Source of the DNA: Owenia fusiformis
Taxonomy: Eukaryota
Assembly: GCA_903813345.2 (NCBI GenBank)
Contig: CAIIXF020000001.1
Coordinates: 19,034,001-19,098,000, forward strand
Length of the DNA: 64,000 nucleotides
Reading direction: 5' to 3'
Both the position numbers and the translations under genes were made by a program. Shown in pieces: positions 29,154 to 59,406 of the stretch (its first letter is position 1; every line of letters starts with the position of its first letter). The notes beneath the pieces are model-generated. The model had not been told where the DNA came from. It saw nothing but the letters and a program-made list of their open reading frames with translations, and did not search any database.

Positions 29154-32100
29154 TACTCTGTAAGACAAGATATTTTCTTATCTTTACTATGTCTCTATCT
29201 ACTTATGTGATATCTTTATACACAACTTTATACACAATATTTTAAAATACAAAATACACACCTTCAACAATTAATGGTTTTGACTTTTGACTTTGAGTTG
29301 TTTCAATAATATACATTATAAATATGGCAATTAATTAGTATAGTACATATTTATAATAAAAACCTTGTTAAGATGTACATACATGTAGTTAAATAGTTTG
29401 AAGATCATTTCCTCATTAAATATATATCTTGTAAATACTAAATAGAGTTCCTTGGATGAGTTACTGGAAAATGTCTTTACTTCTCAGTGCATTGGACAAC
29501 ACTGTAAACCTAGAAAATTACAGGCAATTAAATTTTGCAAATTTGCTCCGATTTGCAATTATGCATGTTGGCTAGACTTTTTCACATTTTCTGGACAATT
29601 TGGTAATACAGTTACAGGCTAGACTAAAAGATTGAATCCAATTGTCAAATCGAAGCCCTGTCTATATAAGCGTAATATCATACCAAAAATATCTAGGTTT
29701 CCAGTTCATTTTTTGTCCAGTTAATGCGATGAAGATCATTTCCTTACAAAAACAGAACACTGTATTTGTACCAAAATATTGTTACAATTACTGTACCATG
29801 AGATAATGTCTGCTTCCATATATCCAATATGATTAAAAAAAATCTTGTATGAACTCTTCAACTAAAATCATAAAATATTTTCATAAAGGAACTCCTTTAT
29901 GGTTTGTGTACTTGTCAGTACTACTTACAAATCTTATATTTTCGTAATTTGAATTGATATTTAAAGTCCTGAACACTCATTCTTGCACTGAACATGGGCC
30001 TAGCTAGGTTTGAGGTAGGTAAGGCTATTGCCAAACCAGAAGTTTAATAAAAAAAATGGTTTTGACATTTTAGCAACAGTGGCTTTGAAAATGATGTGTC
30101 ATAGCAATAATATATCCTCTTTGGGTAAAGTCCTGTCTCAGCTTTTTAAATGTAAATCACCTATTTTTGGAATATGTCTATGCCCCTGCTGACTTTGCAA
30201 GATCTTTTAACTCTGTTGATAACTTCCATATTTTTATGTCATTGATTTTAGTGATAAAGAGGAAGCAAGTGATCATTAATTGTTAATGGCAGGTTAAGTT
30301 AATTACAATAAGGCAGTCATAATTGTTCAGAGATAAAAATTATAATTTGAATAAATTGGTTTGCTCAAGATTTAATCAAAGAGAATGAATCAAAAGAAAA
30401 CTAAAATAAGCTAAATAAAGATAAATTAACTTAAGAACAATGCACAGTGAAAACTTCTATTTAATGAGATGGTGTAGTGTGCAGTTTAATGTCTGAGAAG
30501 ATTGTGCTTATATTGCATCTGATGCTCAATGATCACGTTGATCCTGGTGGGAGTCATCTTCACTTGATCTCGATCCACCAGGGAGACTTCATTGTGTCAT
30601 TTCCATATGGCGTCTGCTTCTGGGAGGCTCCATTGTTTCCATTTCATTCTCCAAACACTGTTGAAGACCAGAAAAAATAAATATAAAATTTCTGTTCGCA
30701 AATGATATCCTGAATGAAATTTCACAAAAGGACCCATTCTCCATGCAGCATTCTTGAATCACGGAAGTATAGAACTAGTTACGAACCCCTTTACCTGGGG
30801 ATGCCATGCAAGGGAGTGTGCATGACTGTTCCCAAACCAACAGCATGCAATAACAGTATAAACTTTGAATGAAACTTGTGCATGTTATTATTTTGTTTGT
30901 GTAGTCACCTATAGTGTTCTCCCCATGATTCTCAACTGGGTGATCTTCTCATCTGTTATCTACTGCAAAATTATTTTCTCATTTCAAATTGGTGCTGCAC
31001 CTGGTTGACTGACCACTCGGGAGATCACTGCATTGGTAGTGAGGGTTTATTGGTTCATTGACGGCAATAGCAGGCCACCTCTCTGATGCATTCAATTGCA
31101 ACAACATGACAATCAGTCGTTGAATCTAAACCTCATTACATTTGAGAGAAGTGCCCCCTACCCCAGTGCAACATACAGGTGTATTAACAGAGTCCAGAAC
31201 AAACAATACATTGTCTATATAAACAAGTGATGAAGCACTGATTAATTAATGTGATGTGATGCAAAACAAAAACTCAAAATTAAATGAATTCATCCCAGAT
31301 CTTCTCATAGATTCTCACAGCTCAGTCCAAATTAATATGCACAACTTCAATGCTTTTGATTTTATTAACTAGAATGTATTTTCAACAATCCATCAAACTC
31401 TGGGATTTCGCTTTGCATTGCAAAAACATGGTGCTTAATATAAATGGTGCTTAAAAAGTGCACATAACTACATTATCTATGTACGCATCTTGCATTACAA
31501 GCCTATAACATACCAGGCTTTAAAAATTAATCACATTGTGGATTAGTATCATAGGAGGCGTTAATACTAAAACTGGTGAATAACAAACAAATGTGACTAC
31601 AGAAAGTGCTTGTGCAATATAAATTCTCAATAAAATACATCCTTTCAGCCTAACCTATTTACAAGGTGCATCATAATCAAGGAAACATGGATGGTACCAA
31701 GGGAAAAGGTGGTCAACAAATATGTTAAATAAAGCACATATACGAGGATTGTCCCAAAAGTATGAAACGCATTTGAATCATTTGTTGAAGGCAGCAGAGC
31801 AGTATTTCAAGAGTAGGAGTTCTGATTGAATAGGCTAAAACAGACATGCTATTAAGCCTCCTAAATTGAAAAATGAGTTTAATTCTGACATTTATGTTCC
31901 CTTAGGTAACATCACAAGTTTCATTAATTATTGAACACCTTGTATAATCCTAGGATTTTCAAGTGCAGGTATAAAATCTTAGTATACTATGTTAATTTAA
32001 TTAATAAAATAATAAAAAGATGTGCCAGAGATACACTGATACAGGGTGTACTGAATTGGATCTTAAAATTAACAAGTAGTGAAATTTTTAAATATTTGTT

Positions 32101-36495: not shown

Positions 36496-36782
36496 TCACA
36501 TGACGTCGACAAAGTACAACTCACAGGGGTTTCCCATCGCCATGCGGAATGATTGGCGGCTTCCACTGACGTCTGGACTGACTTGAGCTAAGTCTCTCGG
36601 GGGAGGAATTGGTTTAGCTGCTGGATCTGGTTTTGTTGGTAAAACAGAAGGATTGGGATTTATGGGTGTGACTCGGCGCATACTCGCCAGAGAAGCTGTG
36701 TCTGTGTCACTACCGCTCCCACTAGCTGACTTGCGATCCAGATTGTTCTTTTTACTGCGACTACTACCAGAAGTGCTGCTAC
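36496..36782 (-). CDS. dvl: Dishevelled, last coding exon (C-terminal domain, ends [35 protein letters not shown])
   Basis: Acceptor ttacag|GT AGC; hallmark Dvl C-terminus SRQSFxMAMGNP..FVDVM; TGA at 36496-36498. Confidence 0.95.
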
Positions 36783-38367: not shown

Positions 38368-39740
38368 CTGTGTGTGATGATATGGTGTCAGGGAATGGAG
38401 GAGGGACAAAAACAAACCAGACAAGAGTTACTACATGGTGTCAGTATCATTACATGTAAAACTCATTCAATCCAATCCAACAAGACAAATCTTACATCAA
38501 CAGGAAATGTTAACATAGAATTACATATGAAACATCCTGAACAGGAGCAATCAAAAATTAATCTTAAATTAAAGTAACATTTATATGCGGCTTTTAATTC
38601 AGTTTAAGGATCCTTTACATAACCATATTAGTAACAAAAAGTAACACAATCATCATTTTCATTGTGCACAATTCATTTTGATCACTTTTACAACTCATTA
38701 TGATAAATGCATGATTGAGAAATGAATGCAGGTTAGACTGGTTACATTCATAATTTCAGACACCGCTTCAACATAACAAAAATTAAAGGGCTAATAGCTG
38801 TTATTCTCATTCTAAATAACCATCTAATTTAATTCATTAAGATAGGTCACTTTCATAATCAATAGATTTTGATACAGACCTTTGTTTCTGTAATAATTGT
38901 AGCTTAAAAACTATCCATGTAGAAAATGCCTTGTTGAAATTGAAAAAGTGTACATTTTTTTTAATTTGTAATCTATCATACTGCTTTCAAGGTGAGGACT
39001 TTTTATCAAATGTTGTTATTTTCCGTGGAAAGTTCATATTGAAATCTATTAATTACATACATGTACTGTGTTACTTATCTTTATGAATTAAATATATTTC
39101 AGGGTTACTGAGGATGAGAATTACAGGATTAGGGCCTTTAATATTCAAATAAAAAAACTGCTTTGTGTGATTGTGCAACACTACTACATATATGTGTCTT
39201 GTCTCAAAAAGCAAATTGCATTTATATCCATGTAAATTGAATGTTATGGGTAGATATTTTTTGTTTATTTGAAACAAGACTATCTATGATAATTTCACAA
39301 TCTAAATAATACCAAATAAAAATAACTACTGTGCTAGTGCCTGTATCACAAAATAAACTGAAAGTGCATTGCATATGAAATTCCCTGCTCTGAAGCCCTA
39401 TTTTTATATCCATTTAGACCCCTTAGTACTCATTTGTGATACAATATTGCCCTGTCGGAAAATTTAGATGTACTAGTATTAATATGAAGCTTCTACACCC
39501 TCGATGACACATGAATATAGAATGAAGATACAAATGAATCAAACACTGAAATAATGAACGTCATAAGGAAACATGAAGACTTTAGGACACACATAAAGAA
39601 CAAAGGGCAAAGATGCGACTTAAATAATCAAACAGAGGTAGAGGGTTAAGAAATTAATTAACATAGAGGCATAATTAGAGTAGAAGGGTTTGTGGTGTCG
39701 TAGAGGGGTTCATGTGTAAAATGACAAAATTTCTACAAAC

Positions 39741-39974
39741 CAGTGCTACTACTCGTGCTGCGGTCTATATCAAATTCATCAGGGAGATCAGATTTAGAAT
39801 CGGCAAGAAAACCACTCTCCTTGGCCGCTTTTTTGGCTAGTTTTTCCTTTTGTTCTTGATTTAGCGCATTCTCTTTGTCCTTATTGACCCAGAGTTTGCG
39901 TAGATGTTTATACGTGTGATTTACAACATTACAGGCACATGCCGCATTATTATGTGAGGTGGCGTGAGTCAGGG
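39741..39974 (-). CDS. dvl: Dishevelled, candidate cassette exon (234 nt, phase 1-1)
   Basis: gtttgtcttgtag|CC CTG ACT CAC...AGT AGC ACT G|gtttgt; open in frame: LTHATSHNNAACACNVVNHTYKHLRKLWVNKDKENALNQEQKEKLAKKAAKESGFLADSKSDLPDEFDIDRSTSSST. Missed by the ORF track. Confidence 0.6.
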
Positions 39975-41620
39975 CTACAAGACAAACACAAGAGAACCAA
40001 GGTCAGCAGGCAGTCGGCACTTGCAGGCCCAGGCTTGCAGGATCTGTCCAGTCAAACATGGCAGCCAAGCAAACAGCACACGCACAAACTTATCCCAAAA
40101 TTGTAACCCAAGAGATGTCCCATGCATTTCAAAGTGGAATAACAGGTCCAGACCCCAGACCATGCAAAATTAAATGGAGATATGTTTCCGTTTGAAATCA
40201 ATGAAATTAGTACAGATTGCAAAATAATAATTCAGATAGAAGTAATCAATGATAATTCAAACAAATAAAAAGTAAACCAAATCAATGTGTAAAATACCAA
40301 ATCCAAAATAAAATCAACATATTCCAGGTCTGACATCCAATTACATGCAGAATCACCATTGGTATCCTTTTAGTGTAAAATCAACAAATATGATCAAATC
40401 GCAACATGCTTTAAGGTATGGCAGAGTAGAAGTAGCAGCAGAGTAATCTGTCAGTTTGCATACTGACATCATGTGCAAAGTTTCCCTACATGACCCACCT
40501 TAAAGCATGCATGTATCAAACGTATAACATCATTTCACATGAACAAGCAGTGCAAAAAAACATGAAGGAAAAATAGAGATGAAAACTGTTGTCAGCCAAA
40601 CTTATTTTCATTTAAAGTCATAAATAAATAAACAAATAAAAAATTGGGATTTACGACGATCACTCTTAAAATCGTCAAGCTTTATAATTGAAAATCTAAA
40701 AGCAACATGTAGTGGGTGTACTCAGATGCATTCAATGAATGGATGTACTGTAGGTATGGTTTGCTAGGCTGCACATGTAAAGCTCCCAATAGACCTAGTA
40801 TTAGTTTCCCTATACTAAATGGCCATACTGGGTTAAAATCTGAACAATCTAGCACCATTTTATATTTATCACAAATGAAAATAGATATTCAATGACTATT
40901 ACAAGTATTATAATAACAAGTGCAAGAGAATAATTTTTTTCAATGGTGATAGACTGCTCATAATTCAAATTAATAAATGGACTACCAATATCACAAGTTT
41001 TAGCCACTTTCATCAATATTAATCAGAACTAAAAAGTTTCATATTAAATTAAAATATTTTTATGACACATCAGTTTTGTGCATTTAATCTTGTGAAGTTA
41101 TGAGAGTTATTCAACCATTTTTAATGTTAGAAACTCTAATAGAGGTCATGAGAGTTTTCCATTAATGACTACAAGTAATCTACAAAGTAAGATAAGTGAC
41201 TAAAACTTGTTGTTTTCTATGACAAGCATCATAAGGTACAAATTCACAAAGAAATTTGAGAACTGAACATGAAATAAAATGGGCAGCAAAAATGAGGTAA
41301 AATAAGTTGAAAATAGTGATCAAAAGTAAATTCAGCTCTATAAGTATCTAAATCAGATTTTTAATGTTTTAATCCCATTTTACTGGCATTCCGAGTCTTG
41401 AGAAGATTTAGCATATCCTGCCTATAAGCACATAGGAGAGATAGCTACAGGCTGTTGTTAGTCAGTCGAACTCCAAGCGCTGCATCAAAATGCACCGCAG
41501 GTCATTCCAACAATAATATCAACTCAACTTTAAAACTGTTAAAACATTAGAAAGAAACTGACGAATCAGAGAAGAGGTTTCATAACAGCCAACCAATCAT
41601 GTGTCAGCTTACAAACTCAC

Positions 41621-43400: not shown

Positions 43401-43744
43401 GAAATTAACATTTTATACAAGAAGTTTTCTGCGTGATTGGGAATGGCACAAAATTAAGTACCTCGTTACAACGGAGTGGATTAAATATAATATGACAAGT
43501 GAGAGGTTTTATGCATGGGTTGACTAGCTACGTTGATCTTCAGTGTTTTTTTGACTAGGGATATAGTGAATACAAAGAATTCATGTCATGCAATAGTTCA
43601 TCCACTGTCTTTCAGTTTCTATTTTCAAAGCAAGCAATGCCACAAATGTATTTTCTGACTCCAAACTGGAAAAACATTGTGAATATATATGTATCTACTG
43701 TACAGCTGGAGCCAATGGATTAAATAAATAGAGGATAAGCTTAC

Positions 43745-43876
43745 CTATAAAAGCATTTGGTATTGTTATTTTCAGCCACATCCTGTCCCTAATTTCTAGG
43801 CCTGAGTCCGGCTGGGCCATACATTTCACTACCGAGGCCATGTCTGAATTAACTGACAGGTTAAAGTCATCATAGC
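43745..43876 (-). CDS. dvl: Dishevelled exon, DEP domain N-half
   Basis: [33 protein letters not shown]; gcag| and |gtaagc, 132 nt. Confidence 0.97.
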
Positions 43877-44129
43877 CTGCAAAAACAACAGGCAAATATT
43901 ATACCATTTGTTTTGGAATTTTTGTTGGGTATTACATACTACATTCAGCTTCAGGAATTGTTAAATCAGGAATCGTGATCGATAATGTGTTCCAGAAACA
44001 ACTCTCCTATGGATCAGATGCTTGACTCAAGCAAGAAATATATAAGCAGATTTATTGTCGATATCTGTGCATGACTGCTCAAAAAAGCAAGAAAAGAATA
44101 AGCACACTTTACACTGAATATGCACATGG

Positions 44130-44290
44130 TACAGTAAAAACCTATCAAGTCTAACATTTTCTGTGTGGGGGTCAATTGACATAAACCCTCTTGATTCTTG
44201 TTTTACATGTAAAATAAAATATCTCTACTAAAGATGACAAGTTTTTTTATGGTAAACTAGTGTTAGACTTGGATATTGAGATTCACTGTA
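44130..44290. mobile_element. Tigger/pogo-like MITE in a dvl intron
   Basis: TA-CAGTAAAAACC..caagtctaaca...tgttagacttg..CACTG-TA. Confidence 0.5.
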
Positions 44291-44431
44291 ACATATCATT
44301 TCAATGACAACTGAAATAGTAATTCAAACCTAAAGGAATCAATTTAACATTACATTGGCATGCAACAAAACTCTTTAAACACTTACGTTCAGATTCTGGA
44401 ATTGAACTAGTTAAGCTCTGCATCCACTTAC

Positions 44432-44673
44432 GTTCTGACTCAGGTATTGAACTAGTTAAAGATGAAGAGGTTGAGGTCATGGTCGCTACACTGCCGGGTC
44501 CGTGAGGAGGTTTACCCATTATCTCCCGCTGCATGGCTGTAGTATGGGCAACCCAAGCTGATGGGTCTATCGGCCTCACAGGCTCCTGACGGGGTATCGT
44601 GAAGTATCCTTTAGGGTTAGGGTCCCAACATTTGGCAACTACCAGTGTAACTGGTTGGGGAGCATTTCCATAG
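44432..44673 (-). CDS. dvl: Dishevelled exon, PDZ C-terminus and Pro-rich linker (alternative in-frame donor extends it to 44387)
   Basis: [44 protein letters not shown]...SSIPESE; tttcag| and |gtaagt, 242 nt, phase 2-1. Confidence 0.95.
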
Positions 44674-44793
44674 CTGAAAGAAAATATTTGGTTTTTGAAT
44701 ATACTAATTTTAAACAGTCAGAGGAAACATCTGGGACAATCTATAAATCTTGCGAGCACCCTTATAAGGCAAAGCATGAATGAAGATTCTTAC

Positions 44794-56726: not shown

Positions 56727-56870
56727 CATTTGGATGGTACTGCGGGTGTGATGGTTGCCCTCTCAAGGCGGGATGCATTCGAGGGTCGTAAAACCTCGGA
56801 TCCTGAGGGTGCATGAAACCCTGAGGCTGAGGGGGGTTATAGTGGATGTTACCATGGCTTCCTATTTGGC
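56727..56870 (-). CDS. dvl: Dishevelled, candidate cassette exon (144 nt, phase 1-1; P/Q/H/G/Y-rich)
   Basis: tttgtcag|GC CAA ATA...CCA AAT G|gtgagt; GC-rich island open in the Dvl frame. Confidence 0.72.
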
Positions 56871-59406
56871 CTGACAAATAAAGAACATAAACATGTCGCA
56901 AAATAAAATAACAAAAATCGTGCATTAAGCAAGACATCTGAGTACCAAGAAAACTTCGAATAATAATACTCTCATTAAAAAATTTAACGAAGGTTTCTTG
57001 GCATCTATCAAATGCATATAAGCAACCATGCAACACGTGTATTTCCACCATCAGTGAAGATCAACTCCCATAAGCATCAAACTTCCCATGATGCACTATG
57101 TCACAACAGAATGGAAGCTGAAAGAATGAAATAAGCAAAAGCATTAATTTCTGTCCGACCCTTCCTACTTTTGTCCAAGCATTAGATGAATAGCTCTGTT
57201 ATATATTCTGAATAAACAATTGAAAAAGATCTGCTCCAGGGAGCATATTAGTATTATTGCCCATTGTTGATCAAAGATGTTAAAAAGCAAGTCTGTTACA
57301 TGTTCACTGAATATTGAAGCTGGCTGTTTATTGAAGCATGACCATATTCAAGCCCCAACTAGTCATGCTTAAAATATATAGACTGTTGACACGCAATAAT
57401 ACGTTGATGAAATCTGAAATGTTCTTGCCCAATGTAAATCCATGCTTTCATGACATAGTAGAAACTTGAATGAGATAACCACATTATACTGGGTGTTGCC
57501 TAGCCATATAAATACCTTTCAAAAGAATGGCCTTCAGTATGACTCCCATAAATGTGATGGTATGTATGGTAGATTTCAAGTTTTTTATTCTGTTTCTCCA
57601 TGCATACTTCATGCCAATTCAAATTCAGCAAATTAAAAAATGACAAATTTTTGATTTCTAAAACCTTCAATTTGATTTTAGGTTTGACATACGAGGGTAG
57701 AAAACTTCAATCCCATATCAGTATCCCCATATATGGTCAAGCTCAATTCAGAAATTTCAATTCTAGGCAGTATAAATATATGTGGATACATATTTAAGCT
57801 GTACACCTTGCAAAAAAAGAATTCAAAGCATGATGCATGACATCTATTCGAACTTTTTGAAGATACCACAACAAGGCTGAAACAAATCCAATTATAAAAA
57901 AATACAATGATGATAAAATATTCAAACAAAAGTACCAAAAAGCATGAGCTTTGACTACATTTATTTCAACTACATCAAATATCTAAGAATGCAAGTCAGC
58001 TACAACAAAAGCATATCAGTATTGTACATCATTCTTAGGTCACAGTTGAGATAGAAATGAGTTGAAATTGATGAATAAATCAGTACTTTTGCAACTCGAA
58101 AACAGTCACTCCAGTTAAGTTGCAAATCCCAACGAACAATATATCATTACTCAAACATTAAAGTAGATTTATTAAAGCCTGCATAACATAAAGTCTTACA
58201 ATATTTCTATGAATAATAGTAGGCTCTCTCAAGAGGGGGAATAACACCAGGGTTCAGAGATGACAAACATCTATTATGTAAATCTGTATTGACATGACAT
58301 TGTCACTGATTGGTCAAATCGACAGACAAATGACGTCATTCAAAAATAGATTGGCTTTCCCCAAGTTGGTGATCATTATTGATATCCAAGGCACAATAAA
58401 ACAACATGATTTCATATTTGTAATGTACATGTACTACTTTAAGGCACACAGCGGCGTAACCAGGTTTTTGATAGCAGTTATGCAAGGCTGAAGACCGAGT
58501 AAAACTTTATTCTTTTTAACTTTGTTCATTGGGATTATAATAGGATAGATTGTAAAAATGAAATCTGTCTCCCAATCATGACCATCTGACAACAGAACCA
58601 TCTATTATTACCTTCAACAAATAAAAAATACATACAGGGGAATCTTTTTAGAAATATAGCTGAGCAGCAATACTTGTGCTGCCATCTTTCAATAGAAAGA
58701 AAACCAGAACAAATAACCACAATTTTTGTTTGGAAAAAGACAATCCTCAATGTTATAGACTAATAATAAGAAGGATCTCTACATTACAAAATGTACAACA
58801 AACACAAATTACACAAGAACTAAAAGAAATGATACACAGAATATGCTGTGTTAACTGTGTGAACTTTAAAATCTCCAAACAGCCCGTATTTGCCATAGAA
58901 CTGTGTTATTTTTGCTAAATCTGTATTGACGATCTATACACAGAGGTGAGATAAGTTTCCTGAAGATAAACATATATCTGCAATCAGGAAAATCAGTTCA
59001 GGTCTACTGCCTTGCATTGCTCAGCTAGAACAGTTAAAGAATCCAGTTCCTGAGATTTATCATGATGAGATGAGCCTATAAAAACAACTTCTTATACAGA
59101 TAAAACAAAGATGCAGAATGCATATGAGATCTTGGAGCTATTGTTCATAGGATCAAATCATAAGTTATACAAACGTCAAGGCTATTATGTAGAGCGGAGG
59201 TCCTTGATTTTTTCGTATATACTGTATGTTACCCTACACAGGGATTCTCTCCCTATTCTTATTCATGCACCAATGATCACAGCCACATCCTTACAACCCA
59301 TAGCACACATTCAGCTTGAATGCACACGAGTCCCAAAATGTACAGGTTCGACCAAAGGTCTGGTCTGTTTAGTGAATAACTTAACCTTGATTGAACCCTA
59401 ACTTAC

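What the first reader, a model, noticed from the sequence alone, without database searches (positions are those of the whole stretch)
44387..44465. Duplicated exon end and donor in which every difference is synonymous
The exon ends TCT TTA ACT AGT TCA ATA CCT GAG TCA GAA C|GTAAGTG. 45 nt later comes AGC TTA ACT AGT TCA ATT CCA GAA TCT GAA C|GTAAGTG. Five of ten codons differ, yet both encode [10 protein letters not shown] and the spacer is in frame. Using the distal donor adds [15 protein letters not shown], doubling a Ser/Thr-rich motif just before DEP. Purely silent divergence argues that both copies are translated and under selection, possibly as a splice-controlled phosphosite dosage switch (inference).
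Basis: partly seen in the sequence, partly recalled or inferred. Interest (0 to 1): 0.7.

Follow-up and report, generated by a model that had tools for sequence, protein, structure and literature searches.

The report
Duplicated splice donor in annelid Dishevelled
A 45-base tandem duplication at the end of one exon of an annelid Dishevelled (Wnt signalling) gene created two identical splice donors that are used about equally, so the protein is made with one or two copies of a serine-rich motif next to its DEP domain.

Summary
On the minus strand, the Dishevelled exon 44673..44432 ends with codons for [10 protein letters not shown] plus C|GTAAGTG. A second copy 45 nt downstream ends at 44387. 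The exon is 100% identical to Owenia fusiformis Dishevelled models.

Stranded raw RNA reads join both donors to the acceptor at 43876:
- Distal donor: 10 and 7 reads.
- Proximal donor: 11 and 8 reads.
- A contig from another study also carries the distal junction.
- Intron depth beyond the distal donor is about zero.

So two in-frame isoforms exist, differing by [15 protein letters not shown].

All four differences in the nine homologous codons are silent third positions (P about 0.002). The adjacent spacer/intron differs at 5 of 10 bases. This points to an old duplication with both copies under protein-level constraint.

The long form is not new to databases: 2 of 5 public O. fusiformis models carry it. 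No doubled motif appeared in 326 other Dishevelled sequences examined.

The motif lies in the DEP-proximal Ser/Thr cluster, shown in human DVL3 to be a CK1 charge-threshold switch (PMC13170675). A "phosphosite dosage" role is plausible but untested, and regulated use was not shown.

The parts
44432..44673 (-). Constitutive part of the Dishevelled exon: end of the PDZ region plus the PDZ-DEP linker, ending ...[20 protein letters not shown] + C
   Evidence: The translation is 100% identical to O. fusiformis Dishevelled models. RNA depth is 13-35 in X20 and X21. Loose ends at 44674 continue into the upstream exon.
44433..44462 (-). Copy 1 of the [10 protein letters not shown] codons
   Evidence: The read variants here, 44459 (TTA to CTA) and 44442 (CCT to CCC), are both synonymous.
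44425..44431 (-). Proximal 5' splice site GTAAGTG (the exon ends at 44432). In the long isoform these bases are coding (R-K-W).
   Evidence: Junction 44432>43876: 11 reads (6 starts) in X20 and 8 reads (5 starts) in X21. Three more X21 reads have a 14-nt overhang that matches the end of copy 1.
44387..44431 (-). 45-nt alternative exon extension, which adds [15 protein letters not shown]
   Evidence: Depth in bin 44400-44434 is 16.5 (X20) and 12.6 (X21), against 34.9 and 26.6 in the next exon bin. X3 contig record 12 runs 44386-44674 without a break. Present in the public models P0242 and P0243.
44388..44417 (-). Copy 2 of the [10 protein letters not shown] codons
   Evidence: No read variant was listed here at 2% or more.
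44380..44386 (-). Distal 5' splice site GTAAGTG (the exon ends at 44387)
   Evidence: Junction 44387>43876: 10 reads (8 starts) in X20, 7 reads (7 starts) in X21, and one X3 contig at depth 901.7. Depth beyond this donor is 0 to 0.7.
43877..44386 (-). Intron: 510 nt when the distal donor is used, 555 nt (up to 44431) when the proximal donor is used
   Evidence: Joints 'skips 510' and 'skips 555', with ends CT..AC on the + strand, which is GT..AG on the minus strand.
43745..43876 (-). Next exon, the shared acceptor: (R)[43 protein letters not shown](G), the start of DEP
   Evidence: RNA depth is 16-25.

Best explanation
The window carries most of the single Dishevelled (DVL/Dsh) gene of an annelid. 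The exon in question is identical to the Owenia fusiformis models.

Origin (inferred). A 45-nt tandem duplication spanned the exon-intron boundary downstream of the PDZ domain. It copied the last nine codons (LTSSIPESE), the phase-1 C, the donor GTAAGTG and about 10 intron bases.

Splicing (shown). This left two 5' splice sites, identical from -4 to +7, 45 nt apart, competing for one acceptor. Both are used in roughly equal amounts. The two in-frame mRNAs differ by 15 codons ([15 protein letters not shown]).

Selection (inferred from sequence). The duplication is old and both copies are held by purifying selection on the protein. Every difference between the nine homologous codons is a silent third-position change, while the neighbouring non-shared 10 bases are half diverged.

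Function (inferred by analogy only). The long form carries 17 instead of 12 Ser/Thr in the cluster next to DEP, and the original cluster sits 15 residues further from DEP. In human DVL3 this cluster is multiply phosphorylated by CK1. Past a charge threshold it binds the DEP cleft in competition with Frizzled. The two isoforms would therefore differ in how much phosphorylation is needed to release Dishevelled from the receptor.
For: - Gene identity: Pfam DIX, Dishevelled, PDZ, DEP and Dsh_C hits on P0005. Full-length match to human DVL2, 8wm9_C, E 5.6e-197. Exons map to the minus strand from 63141 to 36526.
- Repeat.
- Distal junction: 10 reads (X20) and 7 reads (X21).
- Proximal junction: 11 reads (X20) and 8 reads (X21), with anchors of 51-74 nt and no read fitting two places.
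- Extension depth is about 42-47% of exon depth, and intron depth beyond the distal donor is about zero.
- Reads are all first-mate-on-plus, as expected for a minus-strand RNA in a stranded library.
- In X3 (another study) the distal-junction contig has depth 902 against exon depth 1638 (all).
- X1 behaves like DNA or unspliced RNA. One contig runs 44316-44686 through both copies and carries different intron alleles, so the duplication is not an assembly artefact of the window.
- Public models: 3 short and 2 long among 5.
- Selection: 4 of 4 differences are synonymous, P = 0.002 (kappa 1), 0.003 (kappa 2), 0.0007 including the donor.
- All 10 read variants in the two exons are synonymous.
- Function by analogy: PMC13170675 (sections 6, 7, 9, 10, 12 read). 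[quoted passage not shown]
Against: - Only two samples, both from one study, gave junction counts, and they gave the same ratio. Nothing shows regulation.
- Spliced reads cannot exclude that short-form reads come from alleles lacking the second copy.
- X3 showed no proximal-junction contig. Contigs drop variants, so this is presence-only evidence.
- No peptide evidence exists for the long form.
- The selection test rests on nine codons.
- In copy 2 the spacer RKWMQ breaks the run of upstream Ser/Thr, so CK1 priming may be poorer than in copy 1. The two added basic residues offset the two added Glu. 'Dosage' need not be additive.
- Deleting the cluster in overexpressed human DVL2 still allowed signalling (PMC8256032 section 5). 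The DVL3 deletion mutant also signalled (PMC13170675 section 10). The cluster's size may therefore matter little.
- No doubled motif was found in any other species examined, so the feature has no comparative support yet.
Confidence: 0.7

Rival explanations
1. Functionally neutral by-product. The duplication made two identical donors, the spliceosome uses both by default, and the long isoform is merely tolerated. The two proteins behave the same.
For: - The donors are identical from -4 to +7.
- The ratio is the same in both quantified samples.
- The insert lies in a disordered linker.
- Deletion of the whole cluster is tolerated in human cell assays (PMC8256032 section 5; PMC13170675 section 10).
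- The doubled motif is absent from 326 other Dishevelled sequences examined.
Against: A merely tolerated insert should accept amino-acid changes. Instead 0 of about 20 non-synonymous sites changed while 4 of about 6 silent sites did (site counts by my own Nei-Gojobori-style tally). About 45% of transcripts carry the insert, so it is fully exposed to selection.
Confidence: 0.25
2. Presence/absence polymorphism instead of alternative splicing. Two-copy alleles always use the distal donor, and the short mRNA comes from single-copy alleles present at about 50%.
For: Spliced short reads are indistinguishable from the product of a single-copy allele. The ratio near 1:1 would fit heterozygotes.
Against: - The copies differ at 4 of 9 third positions, and the spacer versus intron differs at 5 of 10 bases. 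This is far more than the within-species variation seen in the reads (9 variable sites in 374 nt of the two exons). An ancestral single-copy allele should be long lost.
- Three sources carry two copies: the window, X1 and X3.
- No 45-nt deletion was listed in any run (table 4).
- The same ratio was seen in two samples, and about 55% by depth in a third from another study.
Confidence: 0.05
3. The constraint on the second copy acts on the RNA (a splicing enhancer or U1 context) and not on the protein.
For: Exon ends are rich in splicing signals, and both donors must stay competitive.
Against: The differences fall only on third codon positions and keep the amino acids, which is the signature of coding constraint. 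No stable RNA structure was found (161 nt, z -0.08).
Confidence: 0.05
4. Mapping or assembly artefact caused by the repeat.
For: Repeats can misplace short read ends.
Against: - Junction reads have 51-74 nt on the shorter side.
- 0 reads fit two places.
- Reads cover the unique spacer.
- An independent contig spans both copies.
- Public models carry both forms.
Confidence: 0.01

Closest known systems
Splice sites born by short intragenic tandem duplication (Rogers model; Hellsten et al. 2011, PMC3265369, passages read)
   Same: A short tandem duplication copies a functional splice signal, and the spliceosome recognises the copy. Silent-only divergence under a conserved peptide is also seen there.
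   Different: There the duplicated AGGT gives a donor and an acceptor, and so a new intron with an unchanged protein. Here the unit spans an existing exon-intron boundary and gives two competing donors and two protein isoforms. The 14-nt GT...AG spacer between the copies is not spliced out: no such joint appeared at 2% or more.
DEP-proximal Ser/Thr cluster of human DVL3 IDR2, a CK1 charge-threshold phospho-switch (Micka et al. 2026, PMC13170675)
   Same: Same protein family and same position, at the end of the PDZ-DEP linker abutting DEP. Similar density of Ser/Thr: 12 in 20 residues here, 14 sites in DVL3.
   Different: In DVL3 the site number is fixed by the gene. Here splicing gives 12 or 17 sites. 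No phosphorylation, DEP-binding or Frizzled data exist for the annelid protein. I did not align the residues to DVL3, because no full-length DVL3 sequence was in hand. Only DVL2 was aligned.
Lineus longissimus (nemertean) Dishevelled isoforms predicted at the same junction
   Same: Predicted isoforms differ exactly between ...SIPESE and the DEP-proximal exon. Among the 10 models examined (3, 7), 8 carry an insert and 2 do not.
   Different: The insert there (KDQQKMPTSDVLTRGLEILW in place of R) is unrelated sequence and not a copy of the motif. These are predicted models only, with no reads examined.
Short-distance tandem splice sites (NAGNAG acceptors, GYNGYN donors); recalled, no call made
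   Same: Two nearby sites of the same type compete, and the products stay in frame.
   Different: Those differ by 3-4 nt and arise by point mutation. Here the sites are 45 nt apart, arose by duplication, and add a whole motif.

Membership tests
Dishevelled (DVL/Dsh) | DIX domain | tested here: met
   PF00778, E 2.3e-30, on model P0005. The exons for residues 1-77 lie outside the window.
Dishevelled (DVL/Dsh) | PDZ and DEP domains in that order, with the Dishevelled-specific and Dsh_C regions | tested here: met
   PF02377, PF00595, PF00610 and PF12316 are all above the curated cut-offs. Full-length match to human DVL2 8wm9_C, E 5.6e-197. The exons map to the window.
Alternative 5' splice site pair | Two GT donors joined to one acceptor in RNA | tested here: met
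   Junctions 44387>43876 (10 and 7 reads, plus one contig) and 44432>43876 (11 and 8 reads).
Alternative 5' splice site pair | Both products keep the reading frame | tested here: met
   45 nt = 15 codons with no stop.
Alternative 5' splice site pair | Both products come from the same allele | tested here: inconclusive
   Argued only from the age of the duplication and from two-copy DNA-like contigs. No matched DNA and RNA from one individual.
Alternative 5' splice site pair | Regulated choice (needed for a 'switch') | not tested
   Only two quantifiable samples, with 48% and 47% distal use.
DVL IDR2 DEP-proximal phospho-switch | Dense Ser/Thr cluster at the DEP end of the PDZ-DEP linker | tested here: met
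   12 Ser/Thr in [20 protein letters not shown]. It aligns to DVL2 residues up to 407, within the cluster 396-407 named in PMC8256032 section 5. The junction is 5 residues before the start of the match to the DEP construct 5lnp_A.
DVL IDR2 DEP-proximal phospho-switch | Multisite CK1 delta/epsilon phosphorylation | not testable with these tools
   Needs kinase assays or phosphoproteomics.
DVL IDR2 DEP-proximal phospho-switch | Phospho-dependent binding to the DEP cleft, exclusive with Frizzled | not testable with these tools
   Needs NMR/HDX or interaction assays.
Intron gain by tandem duplication (Rogers/Hellsten) | The duplicated segment itself is removed as a new intron | tested here: not met
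   No joint removing the spacer or one copy was seen. Only the two donor-to-43876 joints were listed, at a 2% threshold.

The most novel reading that the evidence does not exclude
Donor choice is regulated during development or between tissues and acts as a natural rheostat of the Dishevelled-Frizzled phospho-switch. The isoform with the doubled motif would reach the CK1 charge threshold at a different Wnt dose or dwell time. One gene could then supply 'paralogue-like' variants with different canonical versus non-canonical bias, in an animal that has a single Dishevelled.
Probability: 0.2. Interest if true: 0.7.

Novelty: new member of a known kind. Interest (0 to 1): 0.42.

Why it matters
Dishevelled is the hub of all Wnt signalling. 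A 2026 study proposed that the number, density and DEP-proximity of Ser/Thr sites in this very cluster set a charge threshold for release from Frizzled. It also asked how conserved the mechanism is.

Here nature provides a matched pair of isoforms that differ only in that parameter (12 versus 17 sites), expressed about 1:1 in a spiralian model annelid. That gives a ready-made test of the threshold idea. It is also a clean, datable example of how a small duplication across an exon-intron boundary creates an alternative donor that selection then keeps.

The scope is modest: one species so far, both isoforms already present in automatic gene models, and no functional data.

Tried and rejected
- No whole genome is held for this window, so paralogues and other copies could not be sought.
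- Tandem Repeats Finder found nothing; the repeat finder did.
- RNA structure around the two donors is no better than shuffles (z -0.08), so a structural switch was dropped.
- The metagenome scan for two GAACGTAAGT 45 nt apart gave 9 loci. All are unrelated repeats, with no Dishevelled similarity (best tblastn E 0.12).
- Protein searches for close relatives found no sequence above 91% identity other than O. fusiformis itself. Oweniid relatives are therefore not in reach.
- I first read the three short representatives as 'long form unannotated'. This was wrong, because the 90% clusters hid the two long models.
- The Penaeus vannamei hit with two motifs (P0002) has them 260 residues apart in a 'low quality' model that repeats the whole PDZ region. 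It is not the same thing.
- X1 gave no junctions. It looks like DNA or unspliced RNA.
- Residue-level alignment to human DVL3 was not done, because no tool-supplied full-length sequence was available.

Full report
**What is there**

The region lies in a minus-strand gene. Its ORFs read as Dishevelled: the basic region, PDZ, the PDZ-DEP linker, DEP, and the C-terminal region ending ...[15 protein letters not shown].

- A protein search with the exon gave 100% identity to three Owenia fusiformis models. The next best hits, at about 76%, were molluscs.
- Model P0005 has DIX, Dishevelled-specific, PDZ, DEP and Dsh_C Pfam domains.
- P0003 matches full-length human DVL2 at E 5.6e-197.
- tblastn places residues 78 to the end on the window, from 63141 down to 36526.

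**The observation**

The exon 44673..44432 ends TCT TTA ACT AGT TCA ATA CCT GAG TCA GAA C, followed by GTAAGTG. Forty-five bases on, the sequence AGC TTA ACT AGT TCA ATT CCA GAA TCT GAA C, followed by GTAAGTG, ends at 44387.

- The repeat finder reports the 45-nt direct repeat at 80% identity.
- A 35-nt pattern with the four variable bases masked occurs exactly twice in the window, against none in 100 shuffles.
- The extension is in frame and encodes [15 protein letters not shown].
- The shared acceptor is at 43876.

**Are both donors used?**

I laid two stranded raw RNA runs of the same species label (X20 and X21, one study) and the contigs of two older runs from two other studies (X1, X3) on 43700-44720. 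Eighty reads were laid in X20 and 93 in X21.

| Junction | X20 | X21 | Other |
|---|---|---|---|
| Distal (skips 510) | 10 reads from 8 starts | 7 reads from 7 starts | one X3 contig, depth 902 |
| Proximal (skips 555) | 11 reads from 6 starts | 8 reads from 5 starts | 3 more X21 reads with a 14-nt overhang matching the end of copy 1 |

- Anchors on the shorter side reach 51-74 nt, and no read fits two places.
- Depth over the extension bin is 16.5 (X20) and 12.6 (X21), against 34.9 and 26.6 in the adjoining exon bin.
- Depth drops to 0-0.7 beyond the distal donor, so the extension is not intron retention.
- All pairs have the first mate on the plus strand, as expected for a minus-strand transcript in a stranded library.
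- X3 shows the extension contiguous with the exon (record 12) but no proximal-junction contig. Contigs show presence only.
- X1 has flat depth of 14-16 over exon and intron and contigs that cross both exon borders, so it behaves as DNA or unspliced RNA. One contig runs through both copies and carries other intron alleles, including a 6-nt insertion at 44355.

The duplication is therefore real in several individuals. About 45-48% of mRNAs use the distal donor in the two samples that can be counted.

**Public models**

My first reading, that only the short form is annotated, was wrong. The search tools show one representative per 90% cluster. The cluster of P0005 also holds P0242 (746 aa) and P0243 (824 aa), which read ...[26 protein letters not shown].... 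Two of five public models therefore carry the long form. They are named only 'unnamed protein product'.

I found no paper describing it:
- 'Owenia fusiformis' with 'dishevelled' gave 2 papers, of which 1 was listed. Its passages do not concern isoforms.
- Two searches on Dishevelled splice isoforms listed 15 and 7 papers. The only relevant one treats nematode isoforms that differ in whole domains (PMC3564985, passages).

These are limited searches.

**Selection**

In the 45-nt register the units match at 36 of 45 positions.

- The 27 coding bases for LTSSIPESE differ at four positions, all third positions and all silent.
- C+GTAAGTG is identical in both copies.
- The last 10 bases (spacer in copy 1, intron in copy 2) differ at five.
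- Given four hits in the 27 bases, the chance that all are synonymous is 0.002 (0.003 with a twofold transition bias). Over 35 bases with the donor untouched, it is 0.0007.
- By my own tally, about 6.3 of the 27 sites are silent. Silent divergence is therefore about 0.6, similar to the 0.5 of the unshared flank, while about 20 replacement sites show none.

This is the pattern of an old duplication whose two copies are both translated and constrained. Gene conversion would have erased the silent differences too.

The leading Ser codons (TCT and AGC) are probably not homologous. AGC aligns with the AGT at intron +15 to +17 after the distal donor, so that Ser was recruited from former intron sequence (inference).

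Within the species, all 10 variants listed in the reads over the two exons are synonymous. They include two in copy 1, TTA/CTA at 44459 and CCT/CCC at 44442.

**Relatives**

| Set examined | Result |
|---|---|
| 119 other longer proteins listed, of 780 hits | none has two adjacent motifs |
| 120 near-length proteins listed | 33 with one motif, 87 fragments without, 0 with two |
| 87 further members of ten large clusters: oysters, abalones, cephalopods, mussels, clams, a chiton, two gastropods, a nemertean | 72 with one motif, 15 fragments without, 0 with two |

That is 326 sequences in all.

- The single motif ...[16 protein letters not shown] followed by FDDLNL is nearly invariant across these spiralians.
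- Several genomic fragments read through the same C|GTAAG donor, so the boundary itself is old.
- Lineus longissimus models show a different insert at the very same junction: 8 of the 10 models examined have it and 2 do not.

**Likely function**

The motif is the end of the Ser/Thr cluster that abuts DEP.

- The junction lies five residues before the start of the match to the DEP construct 5lnp_A.
- Micka et al. 2026 (PMC13170675; sections 6, 7, 9, 10, 12) show that in human DVL3 this DEP-proximal cluster (14 Ser/Thr) is the fastest CK1 target.
- They also show that about seven phosphates pass a charge threshold, and that the phosphorylated linker then binds the basic DEP cleft in competition with Frizzled.
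- They state that site number, density and proximity should tune the response.

Here the short form has 12 Ser/Thr in the last 20 linker residues. The long form adds 5 Ser/Thr, 2 Glu and 2 basic residues and moves the first cluster 15 residues away from DEP. A change in the threshold is thus a reasonable inference, but it is untested.

Cautions:
- The RKWMQ spacer interrupts the Ser/Thr run.
- Deletion of the cluster was tolerated in both human studies.

No RNA structure that might govern donor choice was found.

**Rivals**

- A neutral by-product fits the identical donors and the constant ratio, but not the silent-only divergence.
- A presence/absence polymorphism cannot be excluded from spliced reads. 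It is unlikely, given the age of the copies relative to the polymorphism seen and the two-copy contigs from other individuals.
- RNA-level constraint and artefact are poorly supported.

**Verdict**

The result is an alternative donor pair born from a boundary-spanning tandem duplication, in a functionally charged spot of Dishevelled. Both isoforms already sit in automatic gene models, and the 'switch' part is unshown. It is a new member of a known kind, of moderate interest.

Noticed in passing
window 36496-36531 and 30644-30659, minus strand: The window ORF ends ...[15 protein letters not shown], like the C-terminus of Lineus P0102 (...GNPCEFYVDIM). All five public O. fusiformis models instead end ...GNPLFGE. 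That ending needs a donor CCCT|GTGAGT at 36525/36524, inside those tail codons, and an acceptor ...TTCAACAG|TGTTTGGAGAATGA at 30657. This may be a second alternative-donor event, one that removes the conserved Dishevelled tail.
   Followed up: partly
proteins P0102, P0104, P0120, P0284-P0290 (Lineus longissimus): Predicted nemertean Dishevelled isoforms differ at exactly the same exon junction. ...SIPESER|YDEQ... occurs in 2 models, and ...SIPESE|KDQQKMPTSDVLTRGLEILW|YDEQ... in 8. This is independent isoform variation at the cluster-DEP boundary.
   Followed up: no
window 56728-56946 and 39739-39975, minus strand: Two cassette exons (about 48 and 78 residues) distinguish the public models: 683, 731 and 809 aa short forms, and 746 and 824 aa long forms. 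Their coupling with the donor choice is unknown.
   Followed up: no
window 44190-44345: Part of the intron behaves as a repeat in run X1. Many short contigs pile up at depth up to 85, against about 15 nearby, and contigs break here. X1 also has a 6-nt insertion (TGGCAA) behind 44355.
   Followed up: no
window 43745-44673: Silent polymorphism is high. Ten variants at nine sites in the two exons are all synonymous. Position 44459 differs from the window in every read and contig.
   Followed up: yes
proteins P0002 (Penaeus vannamei) and P0007 (Plutella xylostella): These models repeat the whole end-of-PDZ region ([14 protein letters not shown]... appears twice). They are probably assembly or model errors, which explains the inflated score of P0002.
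   Followed up: partly
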